Shown: one piece after another, positions 3,032-10,861 of the stretch | Layout: each line of letters begins with the position of its first letter | Numbering within the stretch: position 1 is the stretch's first letter | Origin: an uncultured Candidatus Saccharibacteria bacterium | GTDB lineage: Bacteria; Patescibacteriota; Minisyncoccia; Phycocordibacterales; JBBUBG01 | DNA: 13,888 bases | Assembly: GCA_964368365.1 (NCBI GenBank) | Contig: CAYJBK010000008.1 | Location: forward strand, 1-13,888 | Reading direction: 5' to 3' | Translations under genes and position numbers: made by a program | Notes under the pieces: model-generated | What the model was told of the DNA's origin: nothing | Seen by the model: only the letters and a program-made list of their open reading frames with translations | The model's database searches: none

Positions 3032-3185
3032 AGGGTAATGATACCACCGTCAGGTGACCCCGACCTATGAATCGACGGGGATAACTACCTGTCCGCCCGG
3101 AGGGAATCGAGTATCACTTTTATCACGCAGATACGTTAGATATCCACAGTCTTATTAGAACTAGCTATGATATACTTCATTATAT
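3032..3185. promoter_or_regulatory. Divergent intergenic region, expected to carry the promoters for 359..3031 (-) and 3186..3920 (+)
   Basis: AT-rich 3' half (…cttattagaactagctatgatatacttcattatatATG) with several TATA-like hexamers. A short GC hairpin (CCCCGaC…GaCGGGG, ~3058-3085) lies just upstream of the minus-strand start. No exact -35/-10 assignment is possible by eye. Confidence 0.3.
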
Positions 3186-3920
3186 ATGGCCACTAGTTCA
3201 ATAAGTATTTCTCACAGGCACTGGTCTTTAAAAGAGAAGGCCCGTGCGCTCCGTGCTGAAGGAAAAAGTTTCTCGGAAATCATGCGCGAGGTCCCGGTAG
3301 CAAAATCTACGATAAGTCTATGGTGCAAAAATATTAGCCTTACCGAAGATCAGAGATCGCGCCTCGCATCAAAAAAGAAAGGTAACTACATGAATGGTAT
3401 TCGAGCCATTCAAACAATGTTCTGGGGCAAGCAGTGCGATGCGTTTCAAGCAGGTCAGGAAAAATATAAACTCTTCAAAAACGACCCGGAATTTGTTGCC
3501 GGCCTCATGCTCTATTGGGCAGAGGGAAGCAAAACCAGCGTTGCGGCGCTTGCAAACTCCGATGCAGATATGATCAAGTTTATTACTAATTGGTTTAAGA
3601 AATTTTTTGGATTACCGACCACTTCTTTCAGTATTCACCTACATATGCATTCCGGTCAAAACGAGCGAGAAATTAAGGAGTACTGGTCCGGCATTACCGC
3701 AATACCCTTGCTCAATTTCCAAAAAAGCTTTATAAAGCCAGAGGGGTCAGGGTACAGAAAAAACTTGCTCTACAAAGGAACCGTGAAAGTTAGCGCACGT
3801 GGAAAAGGAAGCACCTATCTTCTCTACACCATATTTGGTTCAATCGCCCAGTTTCTCGAAGACACAACCAACAAAAAGGCCCGAGTGGAGAGTTGGCTCG
3901 AGAAGTTACAATACGCATAA
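3186..3920 (+). CDS. HTH-domain protein with LAGLIDADG-like (homing-endonuclease-like) C-terminal domain
   Basis: 244-aa ORF. The N-terminus (LKEKARALRAEGKSFSEIMREVPVAKSTISLWCKN) is a resolvase/transposase-type helix-turn-helix. 'PEFVAGLMLYWAEGSKTS…ADMIKFITNWFKKFFGLP' resembles the LAGLIDADG helix (acidic residue, then G-S) followed by the alpha/beta core, as in LAGLIDADG_3-type proteins. Lower GC than the neighbouring genes. Stops 6 nt before tRNA-Lys. Confidence 0.45.
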   Translation: MATSSISISHRHWSLKEKARALRAEGKSFSEIMREVPVAKSTISLWCKNISLTEDQRSRLASKKKGNYMNGIRAIQTMFWGKQCDAFQAGQEKYKLFKNDPEFVAGLMLYWAEGSKTSVAALANSDADMIKFITNWFKKFFGLPTTSFSIHLHMHSGQNEREIKEYWSGITAIPLLNFQKSFIKPEGSGYRKNLLYKGTVKVSARGKGSTYLLYTIFGSIAQFLEDTTNKKARVESWLEKLQYA

Positions 3921-3926
3921 GTATAT

Positions 3927-3999
3927 CCGCCCGTAGCTCAGTTGGTAGAGCAGCTCGCTCTTAACGAGATGGTCGGGGGTTCAATTCCCTCCGGGCGGA
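3927..3999 (+). tRNA. tRNA-Lys (anticodon CTT)
   Basis: Hand-folded cloverleaf. Acceptor CCGCCCG/CGGGCGG (7 bp). T8A9, D-arm GCTC-AGTTGGTA-GAGC. Anticodon stem GCTCG/CGAGA (4 bp plus a 27-43 mismatch), loop CTCTTAA (U33, anticodon CTT, A37). Variable loop TGGTC. T-arm GGGGG-TTCAATT-CCCTC. Discriminator A. CCA not encoded. Near-identical in layout to E. coli tRNA-Lys. Confidence 0.85.
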
Positions 4000-4039
4000 C
4001 AAGATTAGGCAAGGAAACGTGGTATTATAACTACCACTT

Positions 4040-4373: not shown

Positions 4374-5516
4374 ATGTCTACTTTCGCCTGGGTCGGTCTC
4401 GCCTTTCTCGCGTTCAACATCGGACTCATTGTCTTGATGTGGAAGCGACCGGGAACGACCGACCCCTGGTCCGCCGGCGTTGGCCGCTTCCTTTCCCTAA
4501 GGAGCGGATTCTACGCTGGCTATGTGATCAACCTCACACTGCTCCTCCTGGAGTTCATCCTGTGCATGATCTTCCCGACCTCTCATCCGTGGTTCCTCTT
4601 TGCCGGCGTCGCTATCATCTCGATTGCGTACTTCGGACTCTGGGGCATCACAACCATCGAAACGGGCATCGAAGGAGCCCTGGTGTTCTTGTTCGCCTGG
4701 GTCATGGACCCAAGCCCACCACCACCTCCTGCTGCCCAGGTGCTCAAGAGAGGAAAGGGTGTCTACTGGACACTGCCGCCTCCGTTCGGCGGATTCGAAA
4801 CGATTGAGATCCGGGAACGGGTCTCACGGTTCGGATTCGTGGACGAGAAGACAGCCGCAGTCGGGTTTAAGATCTACACCAATGATGGAATCGTCCACCA
4901 GGTGTTCGGGTCCATAACCTGGTTCATCGAGGACATCGCCCATGTGCTGACTCACAGCACGAAGCCGATCCACGAAGTGCTGAAAAACCTGGCACAAGAA
5001 GAGATCAAGCAGGATGCGTCAGGCGTAGCGTCAGATGTGTTCTGCAATCAGATCAATACTGTTGCCAACCAGACGGCGGAGAGAATCAAGGCAGCAATGG
5101 CCGCGGTCGCAGCTGCTCACGGCGTACGTGTCGAACTCGTGCAGATCACGCAAGTCGATCCGCCCAAGTCCGTCGTCGACGCCAAGGCCAAGGTTGCCCA
5201 GGAGAGGGCAGAGAAGGAAGCCGAGGAAATCGAGATCGCGCACGTTACAAAAATGGTTCAAGAGCTTCGTACGAAAAACAAGAAGCTCTCCCACGCCGAC
5301 GCACTCAGAGCTGTCATGGCTGAGCGCGGCAAGCTGGTGTGGAAGTACGACGATTACCCTACCGACTACAGCCTCGACATCAAGGGGCTGCCGGACGGGC
5401 TGACAAGCATTAACGTCGTAGGCGCCCCGGGCACTCGTGGGCCCGGTTCCGGCGGAAAAAAGAAAAACCCGAATAGCGGAGGAGGCAGCAGTGGCAACCC
5501 CGGCAACACCCCCTAG
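4374..5516 (+). CDS. Polytopic membrane protein with C-terminal SPFH/band-7 (HflK/C-, stomatin-, flotillin-like) domain
   Basis: Track ORF 4296..5516. The start is chosen at ATG 4374 (MSTFAWVGL…) because of AAGGAG 8 nt upstream. Three to four predicted TM helices (FAWVGLAFLAFNIGLIVLMW; YAGYVINLTLLLLEFILCMIF; WFLFAGVAIISIAYFGLWGI; GALVFLFAWVM), then PSPPPPPAAQ. The C-terminal segment GVRVELVQITQVDPPKSVVDAKAKVAQERAEKEAEEIEIAHV is the characteristic SPFH 'v.i.dv.pp..v..a...aereaea' helix region. Gly/Ser-rich disordered tail. GC-rich coding sequence. Confidence 0.6.
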   Translation: MSTFAWVGLAFLAFNIGLIVLMWKRPGTTDPWSAGVGRFLSLRSGFYAGYVINLTLLLLEFILCMIFPTSHPWFLFAGVAIISIAYFGLWGITTIETGIEGALVFLFAWVMDPSPPPPPAAQVLKRGKGVYWTLPPPFGGFETIEIRERVSRFGFVDEKTAAVGFKIYTNDGIVHQVFGSITWFIEDIAHVLTHSTKPIHEVLKNLAQEEIKQDASGVASDVFCNQINTVANQTAERIKAAMAAVAAAHGVRVELVQITQVDPPKSVVDAKAKVAQERAEKEAEEIEIAHVTKMVQELRTKNKKLSHADALRAVMAERGKLVWKYDDYPTDYSLDIKGLPDGLTSINVVGAPGTRGPGSGGKKKNPNSGGGSSGNPGNTP

Positions 5517-6499: not shown

Positions 6500-6946
6500 C
6501 TAGTTCCCAAATGCACCACTCCCACGAGGGTTGTTGCCTGGTATAAGACGAGGGTTCTGCTGTTGGATAGCTTTCGGTATGATCGATTCAACATTTCCAA
6601 TGCTATCCTGTCCAACCCCGAACGTGTTTCCAATTACACGAACAAGACCCCACACGGACACCATCACAAAAAGTGCGATAATACCCTGGATCATGCGCTC
6701 GCGTCCCTCTGTGCGAGCCTCCGTATCCTTTGCCTTAAATATGTATTCTGCCAAGCCATAGAAGAAGTATAGGAGAGCGAGGACAAGAAGAATCGGGATA
6801 CCCAGATCCATCAAATTCTTAATCGTAAGAACAATCGTTGTGACTGTTGTATTCTGAGAAGTACCTTGTGCAAACGCTGCGAGCGGGAGTGCGAGAGCAG
6901 CTGCTCCCACAATCGACGCACGAACTGTTCTGAGAACCTTTTTCAT
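6500..6946 (-). CDS. Secreted small membrane protein, paralog 2 (TrbC/VirB2-like pilin architecture)
   Basis: 148 aa. Signal peptide MKKVLRTVRASIVGAAALALPLAAFA|QG (AxA site). Core LLVLALLYFFYGLAEYIFKAKDTEARTEGRERMIQGIIALFVMVSVWGLVRVIGNTF. Gly/Pro/Asn-rich C-terminal tail. A ~90-nt AT-rich spacer upstream may carry an internal promoter. Confidence 0.7.
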   Translation of the reverse strand: MKKVLRTVRASIVGAAALALPLAAFAQGTSQNTTVTTIVLTIKNLMDLGIPILLVLALLYFFYGLAEYIFKAKDTEARTEGRERMIQGIIALFVMVSVWGLVRVIGNTFGVGQDSIGNVESIIPKAIQQQNPRLIPGNNPRGSGAFGN

Positions 6947-7036
6947 GATCGTAGCTTTTTATATTAAAAACTTATTTTTTTATAGTGACCTTATTCTACC
7001 CCCTAGCACACTACCTGTCTACGAGTTATCCACCAA

Positions 7037-7420
7037 CTACCGAAGCTTTGGGTACGCAGGGAGCACAACATCTGTCGAAGGATCTAGCTGGAACGTATTG
7101 GTGAGTACTCCAACGAGGCCCCAAACAGAGAGCATTACAAAAAGACCAACGAGACCGTAGACGATCTTATTTCGCGCCTCGTCACGAGTCTTGTCGTCAG
7201 CTCGGATGAACGTAATCGCGCCGTAGAGAAAGTATATGAGTGCGGCAACAAAGAGAAGGGGCACCACGGACTGAAAGGTACAGAGTAGAAAGTTAACAAG
7301 CGCCGACAAGCTTCTTACGGGCGCACCGCACCCCGACCCCGCGCCTTGGGCAAAAACCCAGAGCGGAGTAGCCGCAAGCAGCAGCGAATAAAAGCCTACT
7401 TGTATGCGTTTTTTCATCAT
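7037..7420 (-). CDS. Secreted small membrane protein, paralog 3 (TrbC/VirB2-like pilin architecture)
   Basis: 127 aa. Signal peptide MMKKRIQVGFYSLLLAATPLWVFA|QG. Cys pair (GCGAP…LLC). Core FVAALIYFLYGAITFIRADDKTRDEARNKIVYGLVGLFVMLSVWGLVGVLTNTF, the closest match to paralogs 1 and 2. Start overlaps the paralog 4 stop (ATGA). Confidence 0.7.
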   Translation of the reverse strand: MMKKRIQVGFYSLLLAATPLWVFAQGAGSGCGAPVRSLSALVNFLLCTFQSVVPLLFVAALIYFLYGAITFIRADDKTRDEARNKIVYGLVGLFVMLSVWGLVGVLTNTFQLDPSTDVVLPAYPKLR

Positions 7421-7848
7421 GATGGTTTTGTAATTGCGTTTATTGTGCCTTGTATTACTTCCGCGAGAACACCGGAACCCAAGAGAACCGCCGCTCCAAT
7501 CACGGTGTATTTGAAAATCTGATGTGCGGAATCAATCGCTTTCTGGTCACCCAGGGCTGTCACATACTTAAAGCCCGCGTAGAGAAATGCGAGCACTATA
7601 ACCACAACTCCAATCTGCATCAAAGCATCTACAATCTTCTTGGGAAGCGACCGGATATCGAGGGAAGATCCGGGACCGTCACAGTTGAGCGGGTCGCACA
7701 GAGTGGGCTGGCCACCTCCCGGGGGCTCGGTACCTCCGGGCTTTTTCGCGCCCTGAGCGAACGAAACGAGTGGCAAAACAAATAACGCAATAATAAAAGT
7801 AAACACTGCCGCCTTCTTTAAATACCCTGGCACTGGAATACTCATCAT
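7417..7848 (-). CDS. Secreted small membrane protein, paralog 4 (TrbC/VirB2-like pilin architecture)
   Basis: 143 aa. Signal peptide MMSIPVPGYLKKAAVFTFIIALFVLPLVSFA|QG. Gly/Pro-rich segment with a Cys pair (LCDPLNCDG). Core VVVIVLAFLYAGFKYVTALGDQKAIDSAHQIFKYTVIGAAVLLGSGVLAEVIQG. Start overlaps the paralog 5 stop (ATGA). Confidence 0.7.
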   Translation of the reverse strand: MMSIPVPGYLKKAAVFTFIIALFVLPLVSFAQGAKKPGGTEPPGGGQPTLCDPLNCDGPGSSLDIRSLPKKIVDALMQIGVVVIVLAFLYAGFKYVTALGDQKAIDSAHQIFKYTVIGAAVLLGSGVLAEVIQGTINAITKPS

Positions 7849-8234
7849 GATCGTATAAATGGATTAAAGCTGTCGTGGACAAAGAAACTAAATATGGTAC
7901 TCACGATAAACCATGCGAGGAAAGCCAGGAAGACCCCTTTTACCGTTGAGGTAACCATGCCGTGGACCTTGGTCGCCTCGCTCTCGTTGCCAAAGGCTAT
8001 CAAGTAGCGAAAGCCGGCAATAGCAAAGGAAATTGTGGCGAGTGGAATAATCAGCCAAAAAAGCGAGAACTTTATGATCCTGTCTGCGAGTACGAGAAAG
8101 TCATTGAACGTGCAGAGTGGCTGACCCGCATTACCACACGGCACAAGTGGCTCCGGTGCGCCATCGGCCGCAAACACTATCATCGGGAGCATGGCGAGAC
8201 CAAGCACAAATCCAAACCTTGGAAGAAGTTTCAT
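7845..8234 (-). CDS. Secreted small membrane protein, paralog 5 (TrbC/VirB2-like pilin architecture)
   Basis: Track ORF 7845..8321, trimmed to the internal ATG at 8234 (MKLLPRFGFVLGLAMLPMIVFA|ADG), which gives a proper signal peptide and removes the overlap with the upstream gene. Cys pair (PCGNAGQPLC). Core LIIPLATISFAIAGFRYLIAFGNESEATKVHGMVTSTVKGVFLAFLAWFIVSTIF. 1-nt gap from the stop of the SBP gene. Confidence 0.65.
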   Translation of the reverse strand: MKLLPRFGFVLGLAMLPMIVFAADGAPEPLVPCGNAGQPLCTFNDFLVLADRIIKFSLFWLIIPLATISFAIAGFRYLIAFGNESEATKVHGMVTSTVKGVFLAFLAWFIVSTIFSFFVHDSFNPFIRS

Positions 8235-8235
8235 A

Positions 8236-9540
8236 CTAATTGCCGAGGAGTGCCCGAATGCGTCGCGATGCACGCAAGACCGCGTCACTCTCTGTCGTCT
8301 TGTTAATGATAACAGACTCAATCATCTCAGCAAAGACGGCATCTGTCTCTTTAGGATCTGGGTCATACCATCCTCTGCTTATAATTGCAGAGCGGTTGAA
8401 GATATCGAGCACAGGATCAGCTTCGGGCAACGAGAGTACGCTCCGCGAAGCAGAGGGCAGGCCCACTGTCTTTGACACAGCAGCACTACTCTCGGGGCTC
8501 GTCAGATCCAGCGCAGCGTTGAAGGCGGTCTCAGGATTCTGCGAGGCGCGAAGCACACCCACACCATACATCTGGGCGAAAGTGACCTTCCTCACCGCCT
8601 TATCTCGCTGAGGCATCTGGGCTACATCAAAGTTGAGATGGGGATTCTTGCGCACAATATCGAAATAGTCGCTCGCACGCCCAAAGTAAACCGCGAGCGT
8701 ACCCGCCTCAAACGCAGCCTTAGAATTTGAGAGTGCACTGTTCCAAGAGTATGAAGTCTTGGAGGGATTCGCAAACTCCGTATAGAACCGAACCGCCGCA
8801 GATGCGCTGGAAGGCACATCGCCGACGCTCTGACCCAGGAGGGATACAATCCTACCCGTACTGTCGAGTCCTGCTATCGAGTCCCCCACCTGCATAATGA
8901 GTGTACTCAGGATATCTTTACTCCACTCTGTATTTCGAACACCTCCCAAAGCTACCGCACTCTGGGTAATGTTGCCGCGCGAATCACGCACCGTAAGCTT
9001 CTCCGGTAAAGCCGGAAACTGCTCCCACACTTTAGGCGGCTCCACAATCCCCGCAGAGGAGAAAAGGTCTCTGTTCCAATACATAATGAGTGGATCGACG
9101 TAGAGCGGCAACGCGGTCATGCCATCGGGGGCCAGATACAGCTCCCCCTCGTCGATGTAAGTATCCTTAAAGGATCGGAGCGGCAACGATTCGTACGGCA
9201 AGGAGTACAGCTTATCGCCTTGGGCAATAAGGAGATCGTGTGGAAAAAGTATCATGTCTGGACCGCGACCCGAGGCGAGTTCTGAGATCAGTGTGCTCTC
9301 GAGGGACTCTGCTGGAATTTCTTCGTAGACAAGAGAATATTCAGCCTCGTGGGTCGCATTAAACTCCACAACAAAAGGACCCATGGAGCTACTCGGCAGC
9401 GAGCCCCATAGTACCACCTCTCCGCCAAACTGCTGTGCGTCTGGACGGCCAGGAAGAGGTATATATCCCGAGAAGGCAAGGACCGCGAGAATCCCGAGAG
9501 CGCCGAAAATAATAAGAAGAAATATTTGAAAAGTACTCAT
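8236..9540 (-). CDS. Membrane-anchored extracellular solute-binding protein homolog (ABC-transporter SBP family 1-like), with no permease or ATPase genes adjacent
   Basis: 434 aa. N-terminal TM anchor (FQIFLLIIFGALGILAVLAF). Segments GEVVLWGSLP…, DMILFPHDLL… and especially LYVDPLIMYWNRDLFSSAGIVEPPKVWEQF match the SBP_bac_1 signature (…lyYNkdlf..aGl.pPkTWdE…). Start is 2 nt after the MTase stop. Stop is 1 nt before paralog 5. Confidence 0.55.
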   Translation of the reverse strand: MSTFQIFLLIIFGALGILAVLAFSGYIPLPGRPDAQQFGGEVVLWGSLPSSSMGPFVVEFNATHEAEYSLVYEEIPAESLESTLISELASGRGPDMILFPHDLLIAQGDKLYSLPYESLPLRSFKDTYIDEGELYLAPDGMTALPLYVDPLIMYWNRDLFSSAGIVEPPKVWEQFPALPEKLTVRDSRGNITQSAVALGGVRNTEWSKDILSTLIMQVGDSIAGLDSTGRIVSLLGQSVGDVPSSASAAVRFYTEFANPSKTSYSWNSALSNSKAAFEAGTLAVYFGRASDYFDIVRKNPHLNFDVAQMPQRDKAVRKVTFAQMYGVGVLRASQNPETAFNAALDLTSPESSAAVSKTVGLPSASRSVLSLPEADPVLDIFNRSAIISRGWYDPDPKETDAVFAEMIESVIINKTTESDAVLRASRRIRALLGN

Positions 9541-9542
9541 GG

Positions 9543-10115
9543 CTATGTCTTCATATAGAGCAGTCCGTAATGGTGCGCACCCGCGAAGAATGCGTCCTTA
9601 TACAAGAAGCCGACCTTGCCGAGAAGCTCTTTGGCTGTGCCTTCTGAGACCACCTGGTCTGGATGTGGCCCCATGCCCGCGAAGGAGGCGGACCAGTCGA
9701 CGACGAGGATCAGAGCACCGGGCTTCAAAACTCTCGCCAGTTCAAGAAGGAAATGCTCCTTATGCTCGGACTGAAAAAGAACATTGGCGAGCACAGCCGC
9801 GTCGAGCGAAGAATCGACAAGCTTCGTACCCCCCAGTGTGTCGAGGTTGCACCACACGACCTCAAGCTGCCCCACCTTTTTAGCTTCCGCCTCTTTCTTG
9901 AGGCGCGAGAGGAGATCCTTCTGAACGTCCAGGGCGTATACGCGGCCAGATGGACCAACGGCCGCGGCCAGCGCAAACGCGTAGGCACCTGTTCCAGTGC
10001 CAAAATCAGCAACATGCATCCCCTCCGTAAGATGCAGGCGCCGAACATTATCCTCCGGATTCGAGAATTCCATGTGCTTTAGTATACCACCTCCAGCCAC
10101 ATCCTCTGTGGACAT
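9543..10115 (-). CDS. Small class I SAM-dependent methyltransferase (first gene of the minus-strand operon)
   Basis: Track ORF 9543..10409, trimmed to ATG 10115 (MSTEDVAGGG…). The longer N-terminal extension runs through the REP palindrome and the start of the divergent gene, and is low-complexity. Motif I VADFGTGTGAYAFALA, acidic post-I ALDVQKD, motif II/III region LKPGALILVVDW. An alternative start at ATG 10073 (MEFSNPEDN…) is possible. Confidence 0.7.
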   Translation of the reverse strand: MSTEDVAGGGILKHMEFSNPEDNVRRLHLTEGMHVADFGTGTGAYAFALAAAVGPSGRVYALDVQKDLLSRLKKEAEAKKVGQLEVVWCNLDTLGGTKLVDSSLDAAVLANVLFQSEHKEHFLLELARVLKPGALILVVDWSASFAGMGPHPDQVVSEGTAKELLGKVGFLYKDAFFAGAHHYGLLYMKT

Positions 10116-10116
10116 C

Positions 10117-10141
10117 CACTTGGGAGCCTGGCTCCCAAGTG
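10117..10141. repeat. REP-like perfect palindrome, copy 1 (CACTTGGGAGCC-T-GGCTCCCAAGTG)
   Basis: 12-bp arms around a single T. Lies in the 39-nt divergent intergenic region between the MTase start (10115) and the RAYT start (10155). Confidence 0.85.
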
Positions 10142-10154
10142 CTATACTCCTGCA

Positions 10155-10796
10155 ATGGGAATGAGAAAAATAGTGCTTGCTGACGACGAGTATTATCACA
10201 TCTATAATCAGGGGGTAGACAAACGCGACGTGTTTTTGGACGAAGAAGACTACAAACGACTCCTGAAAAGCATTCGGGTATTTAATCAAGAAGAGATCAG
10301 TGGAAGTATTCATGAGTTTTCTTTTGGAAGCAAAAAGAAAACTCCTCCGCTCGTAGACATAATCGCCTACTGTCTTAATCCCAATCATTATCATTTTATC
10401 CTTAAACAAAATACGGAGCGGGGCATCGAGAAGTTTATGCAGCGCATCGGCACAGGGTATTCAAACTATTTTAATAAAAAATACCAGAGAAAAGGACCCC
10501 TTTTCCAGGGAAAGTTCAAATCAAAACATGTCGACGGAAACGATTACCTTGTCTACTTGTCCGCCTATGTAAACCTCAACAACGAAATTCATGGACTTGG
10601 GAGCCTGGCTCCCAAGTCCAGTTTCTCTGAATACATTTCTCCTCAGACAAAGGATGCGGTCTGCGCAAAAGAGATTATTTTAGGTCAGTTTAAAAACCAT
10701 GGGGAGTACGCACTGTTTGCGCGAGATTCAATTTTAGAAACCGCACAGCGTCGCAGACAAGACGCATTATTAGATACAATCTTAGGGGATATTTAG
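10155..10796 (+). CDS. HuH Y1 transposase of the IS200/RAYT (REP-associated tyrosine transposase) type
   Basis: 213 aa. HuH motif in LNPNHYHFILK. C-terminal catalytic-Tyr region GNDYLVYLSAYVNLNNEIHG parallels E. coli RayT DYIYINPVKHG (Y-[IV]-N-[PL]-x-x-x-HG). Flanked on both sides by the same palindrome in inverted orientation. Confidence 0.65.
   Translation: MGMRKIVLADDEYYHIYNQGVDKRDVFLDEEDYKRLLKSIRVFNQEEISGSIHEFSFGSKKKTPPLVDIIAYCLNPNHYHFILKQNTERGIEKFMQRIGTGYSNYFNKKYQRKGPLFQGKFKSKHVDGNDYLVYLSAYVNLNNEIHGLGSLAPKSSFSEYISPQTKDAVCAKEIILGQFKNHGEYALFARDSILETAQRRRQDALLDTILGDI
10593..10619. repeat. REP-like perfect palindrome, copy 2 (GGACTTGGGAGCC-T-GGCTCCCAAGTCC), lying in-frame inside the RAYT coding sequence
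   Basis: 13-bp arms, 27 nt in total, equal to exactly nine in-frame codons encoding GLGSLAPKS. It immediately follows the conserved HG of the catalytic region. Confidence 0.85.
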
Positions 10797-10808
10797 CGAC
10801 TTGCTTGA

Positions 10809-10831
10809 ACTTGGGAGCCAGGCTCCCAAGT
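10809..10831. repeat. REP-like perfect palindrome, copy 3 (ACTTGGGAGCC-A-GGCTCCCAAGT), in inverted orientation relative to copy 1
   Basis: 11-bp arms. The central base is A instead of T, so it is the reverse complement of copies 1 and 2. Begins 13 nt after the RAYT stop. Confidence 0.85.
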
Positions 10832-10861
10832 GAGGAGGGGCTGGTGTATACTGGCGCTACG

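What the first reader, a model, noticed from the sequence alone, without database searches (positions are those of the whole stretch)
10117..10831. REP-RAYT unit: HuH Y1 transposase flanked by identical inverted 23-25-bp palindromes
The same perfect palindrome, ACTTGGGAGCC[T/A]GGCTCCCAAGT, occurs three times within 715 bp. Copy 1 (central T) is 14 nt upstream of the Y1-transposase start. Copy 3 (central A, i.e. the reverse complement) is 13 nt after its stop. The protein has the HuH motif (NHYHFIL) and a RayT-like catalytic-Tyr segment (YLSAYVNLNNEIHG versus E. coli RayT YIYINPVKHG). This is the signature of REP elements with their cognate RAYT, which are single-copy domesticated transposases that spread REP/REPIN palindromes. 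Copy 1 also sits in the shared divergent promoter region abutting the ATG of the methyltransferase operon (hairpin ends ~2 nt from the start codon). It could therefore influence expression of that operon.
Basis: partly seen in the sequence, partly recalled or inferred. Interest (0 to 1): 0.65.

Follow-up and report, generated by a model that had tools for sequence, protein, structure and literature searches.

The report
Patescibacterial REP palindromes with RAYT-like transposase
A single-copy tyrosine-transposase-like gene of a tiny groundwater bacterium carries the same 23-base DNA hairpin in front of it, behind it and in-frame inside it; relatives across the Patescibacteria show the same layout and scatter the hairpin through their genomes, even inside essential genes.

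Summary
A perfect 23-nt palindrome, A-CTTGG-GAGCC-[T/A]-GGCTC-CCAAG-T, occurs three times in 715 bp and nowhere else in the window (0 of 200 shuffles). It lies 14 nt before the ATG, in-frame inside the ORF (aa 147-155) and 12 nt after the stop of a 213-aa HUH/Y1 protein.

The REP-RAYT reading is essentially right, but the case is not canonical. The model's best structural match is E. coli TnpA_REP (4ER8). The NCBIfam RAYT model scores only 27 bits (cut-off 80). The palindrome has no GTAG foot and no bulge.

About 77 of 80 independently sampled homologous loci have palindromes at the same four places: 5', aa ~60, aa ~150 and 3'. The outer CTTGG/CCAAG arms are conserved. The inner stem varies between loci with compensating changes, but is the same in all copies of one locus (90% against 5% between loci).

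The 5' copy sits a fixed distance from an extended -10 box and a leaderless ATG. Related palindromes are scattered at about one per 41 kb. Nearly half lie in-frame inside long ORFs, including gyrA, dnaE and tRNA-synthetase genes. The gene keeps one genomic context in every lineage checked.

Dispersal in the window's own genome could not be tested. Verdict: a new variant of a known kind.

The parts
10118..10140 (.). 5' copy of the 23-nt palindrome ACTTGGGAGCC-T-GGCTCCCAAGT (25 nt with the C/G extension, 10117-10141). It covers the -35 and spacer region of the Y1 promoter.
   Evidence: The position relative to the ATG is stereotyped across loci: the CCAAG arm most often ends 15 nt before the ATG.
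10120..10148 (+). Promoter-like site for the Y1 gene: TTGGGA (10120-10125, inside the palindrome), a 17-nt spacer, TG (10140-10141) and TATACT (10143-10148). Six bases then separate it from the ATG at 10155, which implies a leaderless mRNA.
   Evidence: One search finds 9 of 12 consensus matches plus the TG. examines the 28 loci with 15-nt spacing: after CCAAG the bases are T 28/28, G 25/28, n, T 27/28, A 28/28, n, n, A 26/28, T 28/28. Function is inferred, not shown.
10155..10796 (+). Y1/HUH RAYT-like gene, 213 aa. HuH is H78-Y79-H80 (10386-10394). The putative catalytic Tyr is Y138 (10566-10568).
   Evidence: Pfam Y1_Tnp scores 36.7 bits against a cut-off of 23. All family-invariant residues are present. 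The AF2 model has pLDDT 83. The Foldseek top hit is 4er8_A, E 1.1e-5. hhalign places Y138 opposite Y115 of TnpA_REP.
10595..10617 (.). Internal in-frame copy of the palindrome (extends to 10592-10620). It encodes G147-LGSLAPK-S155 in a loop just after the Tyr helix and the H146-G147 motif.
   Evidence: Homologs carry a copy at the same site and in the same frame. Covariation at this site is shown. The AF2 model places it in a loop.
10809..10831 (.). 3' copy of the palindrome (centre A, the reverse complement of copies 1 and 2), 12 nt after the stop codon.
   Evidence: In homologous loci the 3' copy starts 0-25 nt after the stop.
9543..10073 (-). Neighbouring SAM-methyltransferase gene, transcribed divergently. 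Its probable start is the ATG at 10073-10071, with its own TGGTATACT box at 10089-10081. It is context only, not part of the unit.
   Evidence: Pfam methyltransferase domains. Comparison of the N-terminus with ortholog L002.

Best explanation
This is a REPtron of a patescibacterial type. It consists of a single-copy, vertically kept, RAYT-like Y1/HUH single-strand DNA endonuclease gene together with its cognate short palindromes.

Shown:
- The enzyme has the TnpA_REP/IS200 fold with intact HuH and Tyr motifs.
- Its gene is bracketed by a genome-specific 23-nt hairpin and carries one or two more copies in-frame in two surface loops.
- The same hairpin type is scattered at low density elsewhere in relatives' genomes, both between genes and in-frame within genes.
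- All copies at a locus share one inner-stem variant.
- The hairpin class follows the similarity of the protein.

Inferred:
- The protein binds the hairpin as extruded or single-stranded DNA. It recognises the conserved A-CTTGG / CCAAG-T foot and tolerates any paired inner stem.
- It cuts and rejoins DNA there. This copies or overwrites hairpins, which would keep all copies of a genome alike.
- The 5' copy lies over the -35 and spacer of an extended -10, leaderless promoter. Binding of the protein there would let it repress its own gene.
- The internal copies persist because they fall in loops where any L-G-x-x-x-x-K heptapeptide is tolerated.
For: Enzyme: Pfam Y1_Tnp is above its cut-off. H78, H80, Y131, Y138, N140 and N142 are invariant in 22 homologs. 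The AF2 model has pLDDT 83 and pTM 0.81. Its best PDB match is TnpA_REP bound to a REP (4er8_A, E 1.1e-5, TM 0.50/0.63), ahead of the IS608 and ISDra2 TnpA structures. hhalign aligns HYH with HMH, Y138 with the catalytic Y115, N142 with N119 and H146-G147 with H123-G124.

Layout: loci L126-L205 were sampled by protein motifs that do not include the palindrome. About 50 of these 80 have CTTGG-N11-CCAAG at the 5' site, at aa ~60 and/or ~150 (always frame 0) and at the 3' site. Most of the remaining loci have other palindromes at the same places.

Structure-level constraint: at the internal site in 27 length-matched loci, 70% of cells pair against 55% in shuffles (0 of 500 reach it). The covariation score is 0.403 against 0.18, and 0.06-0.17 when the partners are slid.

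Concerted evolution: the inner stem is identical in 90% of within-locus copy pairs and in 5% of between-locus pairs. There are 20 variants among 51 loci.

Dispersal: the genome scan returned at least 118 tiles, where about 4 matches were expected by chance (my estimate). Nearly all come from Patescibacteria, and only about 20 hold a Y1 gene. Several genomes have hits on 3-5 contigs with the same variant as their Y1 locus. In unbiased flanks there are 8 copies in 330 kb.

Gain or loss: the GyrA of L084 has an 11-aa extra segment exactly at two palindromes when compared with the window's GyrA.

Single fixed locus: P0001, P0008, P0015, P0065 and P0002 always have the same neighbours, across up to 24 contigs each.

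Co-variation of hairpin class and protein: the nearest protein neighbour has the same class in 83 of 99 cases. Label shuffles average 53, and the highest of 1000 reached 72.

Promoter overlap.
Against: No biochemical evidence links this protein to these hairpins. Dispersal in the window's own genome is untested: the 13.9-kb window and 10.7 kb of its nearest relative hold no copy outside the Y1 locus.

The hairpin lacks the GT[AG]G guide and the bulge that E. coli TnpA_REP needs for binding (PMC3479197). Residues that read GTAG are only partly kept: Q95 corresponds to Q118, but W94 is replaced by F117.

The sequence-level link to RAYT is weak: NCBIfam scores 27 against a cut-off of 80, the family profile finds no PDB sequence even at E 10, and the hhalign E-value is 0.058.

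The internal site has the same length whether or not it holds a palindrome. Simple insertion and excision therefore does not explain it, and the route of homogenisation is unknown. No presence/absence polymorphism was seen among strain-level variants.
Confidence: 0.72

Rival explanations
1. An autonomous IS200/IS605-type insertion sequence. In this reading the hairpins are its left and right ends, and the whole 0.7-kb unit transposes.
For: The protein has the Y1 fold shared with IS608 and ISDra2 TnpA and matches Pfam 'Transposase IS200 like'. Hairpins lie at both ends of the gene.
Against: The two end hairpins are the same symmetric palindrome rather than distinct imperfect LE and RE hairpins. 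Their relative orientation is random across loci: 19 direct, 17 inverted. Identical proteins always sit in one genomic context in up to 24 contigs from different samples, and the context is conserved at 69% protein identity. The protein is 213 aa with a C-terminal extension and is structurally closer to TnpA_REP than to IS200 TnpA. Most palindrome copies lie far from any Y1 gene.
Confidence: 0.06
2. The palindromes are host regulatory or structural sites: operators for a dimeric DNA-binding protein, or RNA hairpins acting as terminators or stabilisers. They would be unrelated to any cutting by the Y1 protein, and the link to the gene would be regulatory only or coincidental.
For: The 5' copy overlaps the core promoter at a fixed distance. 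The 3' copy follows the stop codon like a terminator stem. The scan flags the internal copy as terminator-like. The conserved half-sites CTTGG/CCAAG resemble a two-fold symmetric operator.
Against: An operator spacer has no need to be self-complementary, yet the 11-nt centre pairs and co-varies. There is no consistent T-run after the stems. About half of the scattered copies lie inside long ORFs, including essential genes, where a terminator or operator makes little sense. G:T and A:C mismatches are equally frequent (19 against 22, and 35 against 33), which argues against selection on one RNA strand. Three or four copies cluster at the one gene whose protein family is known to bind such hairpins. 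No Rfam family matches.
Confidence: 0.12
3. The internal 'palindrome' is a by-product of a conserved peptide motif (H-x-LGSxASK-SSW), and only the two flanking copies are real repeats.
For: The alignment shows L148, K154 and S156 as invariant and an LGS..SK-like consensus.
Against: The codons for residues 3 and 5 of the heptapeptide change together so that pairing is kept: AGC/GCT, GGT/ACC, CAC/GTG, CGT/ACG, AAT/ATT. The internal copy always has the same inner stem as the non-coding flanking copies of its own locus. Lineages without the palindrome have unrelated heptapeptides of the same length. The copy's orientation avoids stop codons: 25 of 81 internal copies would carry a stop if reversed.
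Confidence: 0.02

Closest known systems
E. coli TnpA_REP (RayT/YafM) with REP/BIME sequences, the 'REPtron' (Ton-Hoang 2012; Messing 2012, PMC3479197; Quentin 2018, PMC6006769)
   Same: Both have a single-copy Y1/HUH enzyme gene bracketed by its own short palindromes. The same palindrome family is scattered in the genome. This is the best structural match (4er8_A). The HuH, the Tyr helix and the following H-G motif align. The protein is longer than IS200 TnpA and has a C-terminal extension.
   Different: Here the hairpin is a perfect two-fold symmetric 23-mer with no 5' GT[AG]G guide and no bulge. Both features are required for binding by the E. coli enzyme. Copy number is about one per 41 kb, not hundreds per genome. 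The NCBIfam RAYT model scores far below its cut-off. Copies occur in-frame in the enzyme's own gene and in essential genes. The 5' copy is fused to the promoter at a fixed distance.
TnpA_Y1 subclass 2.4 of Quentin et al. 2018 (PMC6006769): 'double-foot' REPs and REPs inserted in-frame within tnpA_REP
   Same: This is the precedent for REP copies inside the RAYT gene that keep the reading frame and lie in a peripheral variable region. It is also the precedent for REPs that are symmetric at both feet.
   Different: [quoted passage not shown] Here the two sites are before HuH (aa ~60) and just after the Tyr helix (aa ~150). They are fixed across a family of more than 1000 clusters at 50% identity and are not length-changing insertions. 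That paper does not mention any candidate-phyla taxon.
IS200/IS605 TnpA (IS608, ISDra2)
   Same: The catalytic fold is shared, the substrates are hairpin DNA, and the Pfam family is the same.
   Different: Those enzymes are obligate dimers of about 130-150 aa with distinct left-end and right-end hairpins (PMC3479197 and PMC6006769; the size is from my own knowledge). From my own knowledge, they are also multi-copy elements and are often paired with tnpB. None of these applies here.
Rickettsia palindromic elements (RPE) inserted in-frame in protein-coding genes (Ogata et al. 2000; from my own knowledge, not read here)
   Same: A palindromic repeat with no stop codon in any frame sits inside conserved housekeeping genes and adds a short peptide in a loop. 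The setting is a reduced genome.
   Different: RPEs are about 100-150 bp and have no known cognate transposase. The element here is 23 nt and is tied to a Y1 gene.

Membership tests
RAYT / TnpA_REP with REP (REPtron) | Y1/HUH catalytic core with a HuH motif and a catalytic Tyr on the following helix | tested here: met
   Pfam Y1_Tnp scores 36.7 bits against a cut-off of 23. H78/H80 and Y138 are invariant. The Foldseek top hit is 4er8_A. Y138 aligns with Y115.
RAYT / TnpA_REP with REP (REPtron) | The gene is flanked by copies of its cognate palindrome | tested here: met
   In the window the copies are at 10118-10140 and 10809-10831. About 77 of 80 independently sampled homologous loci show the same arrangement.
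RAYT / TnpA_REP with REP (REPtron) | The same palindrome family is dispersed elsewhere in the same genome | tested here: inconclusive
   This is met for relatives. JAGXAA01, JAHIHZ01, MFIO01 and JAUSIP01 have the same variant on other contigs, and unbiased flanks hold 8 copies in 330 kb.
RAYT / TnpA_REP with REP (REPtron) | Single-copy gene at a fixed locus (domesticated, not multi-copy with its flanks) | tested here: met
   The neighbours are the same in all contigs carrying P0002 (3 contigs), P0001 (3), P0008 (10), P0015 (24) and P0065 (24). A whole-genome copy count was not possible.
RAYT / TnpA_REP with REP (REPtron) | Canonical REP anatomy: an imperfect palindrome with a 5' GT[AG]G foot | tested here: not met
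   The palindrome is perfect and two-fold symmetric. Its foot is A-CTTGG/CCAAG-T, often CA.../...TG, and there is no GTAG. Quentin et al. also describe atypical REPs without GTAG for classes 2.6 and 3.
RAYT / TnpA_REP with REP (REPtron) | Score above the curated NCBIfam equivalog model NF047646 | tested here: not met
   27 bits against a cut-off of 80.
RAYT / TnpA_REP with REP (REPtron) | The enzyme binds and cleaves its REP as single-stranded DNA | not testable with these tools
   This needs biochemistry.
IS200/IS605 insertion sequence | Multi-copy element that moves with its flanks and has distinct LE and RE hairpins | tested here: not met
   There is one context per lineage. Both ends carry the identical symmetric palindrome in random relative orientation.
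Rickettsia-type in-frame palindromic elements | A palindromic repeat inserted in-frame in conserved protein genes | tested here: met
   50 of 107 scattered copies lie in ORFs of at least 200 aa. The host genes include ArgRS, GyrA, DnaE, RecG, FtsK, PheT, RecJ and LeuRS. GyrA carries an 11-aa extra segment relative to the window's GyrA. The size class (23 nt against about 100-150 bp) differs, so this is an analogy and not membership.

The most novel reading that the evidence does not exclude
The Y1 enzyme may be a phylum-wide domesticated short-patch DNA editor. On this reading it rewrites 23-nt hairpin cassettes at fixed sites, which would explain three things. All copies in a genome change their inner stem together. 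The sites inside the enzyme's own gene and inside essential genes keep a constant length. The enzyme's two loops next to the catalytic helix are literally encoded by its own substrate. Enzyme loops and DNA target would then be coupled and self-referential, and the promoter-overlapping copy would close an autoregulatory loop.
Probability: 0.2. Interest if true: 0.85.

Novelty: new variant of a known kind. Interest (0 to 1): 0.6.

Why it matters
How RAYTs spread and maintain REPs is still unresolved: no transposition of a REP has been seen directly. This patescibacterial family offers an unusually clean natural experiment for four reasons.

- The hairpin is short and symmetric.
- There are only tens of copies per genome.
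- Three or four copies sit at fixed, homologous positions that can be aligned across hundreds of lineages.
- The inner stem changes freely but in concert.

That makes the mode of copying (insertion, replacement or conversion) and the recognition code directly testable by comparative genomics and simple oligonucleotide assays.

It also shows that repeat elements can sit in-frame in gyrA, dnaE and aminoacyl-tRNA synthetase genes of some of the smallest known genomes.

There is a practical consequence as well. Gene callers mis-annotate these loci: here the gene is truncated to 119 aa in the deposited annotation. Assemblies of the nearest relative start at the hairpin, which suggests that they break there.

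Tried and rejected
- Chance occurrence of the three copies was rejected.
- A protein-motif origin of the internal copy was rejected on covariation and on its identity with the non-coding copies.
- The IS200-type reading was rejected on context constancy and end symmetry.
- Sequence searches of the PDB with the protein and with the family profile found nothing, even at E 10. Only the fold search linked the protein to TnpA_REP.
- Rfam gave no family.
- A scan of viral contigs for the exact window palindrome found nothing.
- Strain-level variants (L206-L221) were searched for presence/absence polymorphism that could show an empty site or a footprint. None was found.
- The idea that every palindrome carries a promoter was tested. 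The TGnTAnnAT box follows almost only the 5' copy of Y1 genes: 28 of 267 copies have it, and one of those is a 3' copy. The idea is rejected as a general property.
Copy number in that genome therefore remains unknown.
- Literature searches for REP/RAYT in Patescibacteria or the candidate phyla radiation found no description.
Full report
OBSERVATION. The window holds exactly three matches to GGGAGCCWGGCTCCC, even when two mismatches are allowed. The expected number is 0.04, and none of 200 shuffles gave three. The full units are perfect 23-nt palindromes, A-CTTGG-GAGCC-N-GGCTC-CCAAG-T, at 10118-10140, 10595-10617 and 10809-10831. The first and second extend to 25 and 29 nt. As single-stranded DNA they fold at -10.8 to -15.4 kcal/mol.

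The ORF 10155-10796 encodes 213 aa with NHYHFIL and YLSAYVNLNNEIHG. Copy 1 ends 14 nt before the ATG, and copy 3 starts 12 nt after the stop. Copy 2 is inside the ORF and in frame.

THE PROTEIN. Pfam Y1_Tnp matches above its cut-off, 36.7 against 23 bits, over the C-terminal two-thirds of the model. The NCBIfam RAYT equivalog NF047646 scores only 27 bits against a cut-off of 80. Neither the protein nor a 22-sequence family profile finds any PDB sequence, even at E 10.

An AlphaFold model built on the family alignment is confident (pLDDT 83, pTM 0.81). Its best PDB match is E. coli TnpA_REP bound to a REP hairpin (4er8_A, E 1.1e-5, TM 0.50/0.63). The IS608 and ISDra2 TnpA structures follow.

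A profile-sequence alignment to the 4ER8 sequence (sequence verified) is weak (E 0.058) but coherent. HYH aligns with HMH, Q118 with Q95, Y138 with the catalytic Y115, N142 with N119, and H146-G147 with H123-G124. W94 of the GTAG-reading region is F117 here.

The family is large. 1,032 clusters at 50% identity score E <= 1e-30. Every source name among the 120 best hits points to Patescibacteria, for example Giovannoni-, Kaiser-, Morani-, Pace- and Parcubacteria. Some are labelled 'transposase' or 'RayT'.

THE LAYOUT IS FAMILY-WIDE. The closest homolog is P0001 (69% identity), found in the same gene order: methyltransferase, Y1, GDSL lipase, gyrA. A Giovannonibacteria homolog, P0008, comes from the 651-kb record CP066687.1. 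Both show a palindrome before the ATG, in-frame near aa 150 (and near aa 60 in P0008), and just after the stop.

To avoid circularity I sampled 80 metagenome loci using protein motifs that do not include the palindrome-encoded peptide: NPNHYHFI and YHIYNRG. About 50 of them carry CTTGG-N11-CCAAG at these stereotyped places.
- The 5' copy most often ends 15 nt before the ATG.
- Internal copies lie at aa ~60 and/or ~150, always in the frame CTT GGn ... nCC AAG.
- The 3' copy starts 0-25 nt after the stop.

In that call, 31 loci lacked the motif (29 of them from the 80-locus sample). Nearly all of these have other palindromes at the same four places, such as ACTTAG..CTAAGT, GTGGACAC..GTGTCCAC or CAGCGGTT..AACCGCTG. 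Some are 36-52-nt double palindromes. The spacing between CTTGG and CCAAG is 11 nt in 220 of 232 cases.

SELECTION ACTS ON THE DNA HAIRPIN, NOT THE PEPTIDE. The outer A-CTTGG/CCAAG-T arms are nearly invariant: the A/T closing pair is present in 98% of copies. The inner five pairs vary freely and stay complementary.

I examined the internal site in 27 loci chosen only for equal loop length. There, 70% of cells pair against 55% in shuffles (0 of 500 reach it). The covariation score is 0.403 against 0.18, and slid controls give 0.06-0.17.

The encoded heptapeptide changes accordingly: LGSLAPK, LGSLTSK, LGGETPK, LGHAVSK, LGRETSK, LGNRIAK. Thirteen of the 27 loci have unrelated heptapeptides of the same length and no palindrome. 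The site is therefore not a simple length-adding insertion. Both palindrome-encoded peptides fall in loops of the model. The orientation of internal copies avoids stop codons: 25 of 81 would carry a stop if reversed.

CONCERTED EVOLUTION AND CO-VARIATION WITH THE PROTEIN. Copies within one locus share the same 4-nt inner stem in 147 of 164 pairs (90%), against 5% between loci. There are 20 variants among 51 loci. The window (GAGCC) and its 69%-identical syntenic relative (AAGTT) differ at three compensated stem positions in all three copies. The palindrome class follows protein similarity. The nearest protein neighbour has the same class in 83 of 99 cases, against a shuffled mean of 53 and a maximum of 72.

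DISPERSAL. Nearly all are Patescibacteria MAGs, and only about 20 tiles hold a Y1 homolog. Several genomes have hits on 3-5 contigs. In JAGXAA01, MFIO01, JAUSIP01 and JAHIHZ01 the scattered copies have the same variant as the Y1 locus.

In the flanks of the unbiased loci there are 8 copies in 330 kb, about one per 41 kb. That implies tens per genome, against 3-4 in 0.7 kb at the Y1 gene.

Of 107 scattered copies, 51 lie outside any ORF of at least 100 aa; 16% of random positions do so. A further 50 lie inside ORFs of at least 200 aa. The palindrome has no stop in any frame. The host genes include argS, gyrA, dnaE, recG, ftsK, pheT, recJ and leuS. The GyrA of L084 is 63% identical to the window's GyrA and has an 11-aa extra segment exactly where two adjacent palindromes sit.

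The window's own genome was not among the rows returned. The window, three replicate assemblies of the same locus, and 10.7 kb of the nearest relative show no copy outside the Y1 locus. Dispersal in this particular genome is therefore untested.

THE GENE DOES NOT BEHAVE AS AN INSERTION SEQUENCE. Identical proteins are always found with the same neighbours.
- P0002, the window lineage: 3 contigs.
- P0001: 3 contigs.
- P0008: 10 contigs.
- P0015: 24 contigs, between pilB and pilC.
- P0065: 24 contigs, upstream of dnaG-rpoD.

The 5' and 3' copies are direct in 19 loci, inverted in 17 and different in 13, so there is no left-end/right-end polarity.

PROMOTER OVERLAP. After the 5' palindrome the sequence is T-G-n-T-A-n-n-A-T, followed by six bases and then the ATG. 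Among the 28 loci with 15-nt spacing the counts are T 28/28, G 25/28, T 27/28, A 28/28, A 26/28 and T 28/28. This is an extended -10 box placed for a leaderless mRNA. The consensus scan also pairs TTGGGA, inside the palindrome, with TATACT at a 17-nt spacing plus TG.

The box follows almost only the 5' copies of Y1 genes, 28 of 267 copies with one exception. It is therefore a property of the gene's own copy and not of the repeat. I infer autoregulation by binding of the protein at this copy. This has not been shown.

THE METHYLTRANSFERASE CLAIM. The ATG 2 nt from the hairpin (10115-10113) is probably not the start. The ortholog in L002 has stop codons upstream and begins at the residue that aligns with M15 (ATG 10073-10071). 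That start is preceded by TGGTATACT plus 7 nt. The hairpin then lies about 28 nt upstream of that -10 box, outside the core promoter.

COMPARISON WITH WHAT IS KNOWN. The arrangement is the 'REPtron' of Quentin et al. 2018 (PMC6006769). [quoted passage not shown] It does not mention any candidate-phyla taxon. I found no paper describing REP/RAYT in Patescibacteria.

E. coli TnpA_REP is a monomer that needs the 5' GTAG and a bulge for binding. It cuts at CT dinucleotides and has an autoinhibitory C-terminal tail (PMC3479197). The element here differs in six ways:
- perfect two-fold symmetry, with no GTAG and no bulge;
- low copy number;
- two fixed in-frame sites at other positions in the gene;
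- constant-length sites;
- fusion of the 5' copy to the promoter;
- frequent in-frame residence in essential genes, which recalls Rickettsia palindromic elements (from my own knowledge).

VERDICT. The REP-RAYT interpretation is supported in substance, but with failed strict-membership criteria, one wrong detail and one untested prediction. It is best filed as a new variant of a known kind: a patescibacterial REPtron. My confidence is about 0.7 that the Y1 protein acts on these hairpins and maintains them. The route of concerted change and the role of the internal copies remain unexplained.

Noticed in passing
window 3090-3110 and 3981-4001: A 21-nt inverted repeat, 95% complementary. The right arm is the 3' end of tRNA-Lys(CTT) (3927-4000). 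The left arm is an inverted copy of it with no tRNA attached. The arms bracket a 244-aa ORF (3186-3920) with no Pfam match. This may be a remnant of integration or rearrangement at the tRNA gene.
   Followed up: partly
window 6503-8321 (minus strand): Four tandem small genes (148, 127, 143 and 158 aa) all match Pfam T4SS_pilin. A replicate assembly (L222) lists five such genes.
   Followed up: no
window 9543-10409 and 10437-10796; L222-L224: The deposited gene calls extend the methyltransferase to 281-288 aa, across the palindrome and into the opposite strand of the Y1 gene. They truncate the Y1 gene to 119 aa (P0002, starting at M95), which then has no Pfam hit. The full 213-aa ORF is the one conserved in homologs.
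   Followed up: yes
window 10081-10089 (minus strand) and 10140-10148 (plus strand): Both divergent genes appear to use extended -10 boxes (TGGTATACT and TGCTATACT) placed 6-7 nt before their ATG. This suggests leaderless mRNAs. The GDSL-lipase gene (ATG 10863) also has a TATACT box (10846-10851), directly preceded by TG, 11 nt upstream.
   Followed up: partly
L050 about 2655-2705; L071 about 4575-4616; L084 3992-4039; L105 364-412: In L050 one palindrome sits in the centre of another copy. In L071, L084 and L105 copies lie directly adjacent to each other, 25-26 nt apart. This suggests a preference for hairpin loops or existing copies as targets.
   Followed up: no
L023 5195-5781 and L034 756-1194 (genome JAHIHZ01): A cluster of seven palindromes of at least four stem variants lies within 600 bp. 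It is embedded in a larger repeat (aggcaaggcctccgtgggaaaatca...) that recurs inverted on another contig. This may be a composite, REPIN-like or larger element.
   Followed up: no
L046 (aa 53 and 433), L014 (aa 59), L028 (aa 426); L057 and L060: Arginyl-tRNA synthetase genes of different lineages carry palindromes at the same two loop positions but in different reading frames (LEAQLPS and LGSSASK). Two Zambryskibacteria orthologs share one site. These are either hot spots or old insertions that are kept updated.
   Followed up: no
L001 and L003, position 1: Two independent assemblies of the nearest relative start exactly at the 5' palindrome (CCCACTTGGAAGTT...). This is as expected if assemblies break at a repeated sequence.
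   Followed up: no
L206-L213 (for example L206 5106-5131): A 26-nt palindrome of a different build, ACTTGTCCCGCC-AT-GGCGGGACAAGT, lies inside the dnaG gene next to the Y1 gene of the P0065 lineage.
   Followed up: no
Scattered copies in L008-L125: In-ORF copies are mostly read as L-[EG]-A-x-L-P-S (33) rather than L-G-S-x-A-S-K (13) or T-W-K..F-Q-V (4). Inside Y1 genes the frame is always L-G-x-x-x-x-K. Flanks extend the palindrome more often than chance: 54%, 48% and 38% Watson-Crick at the next three pairs.
   Followed up: partly
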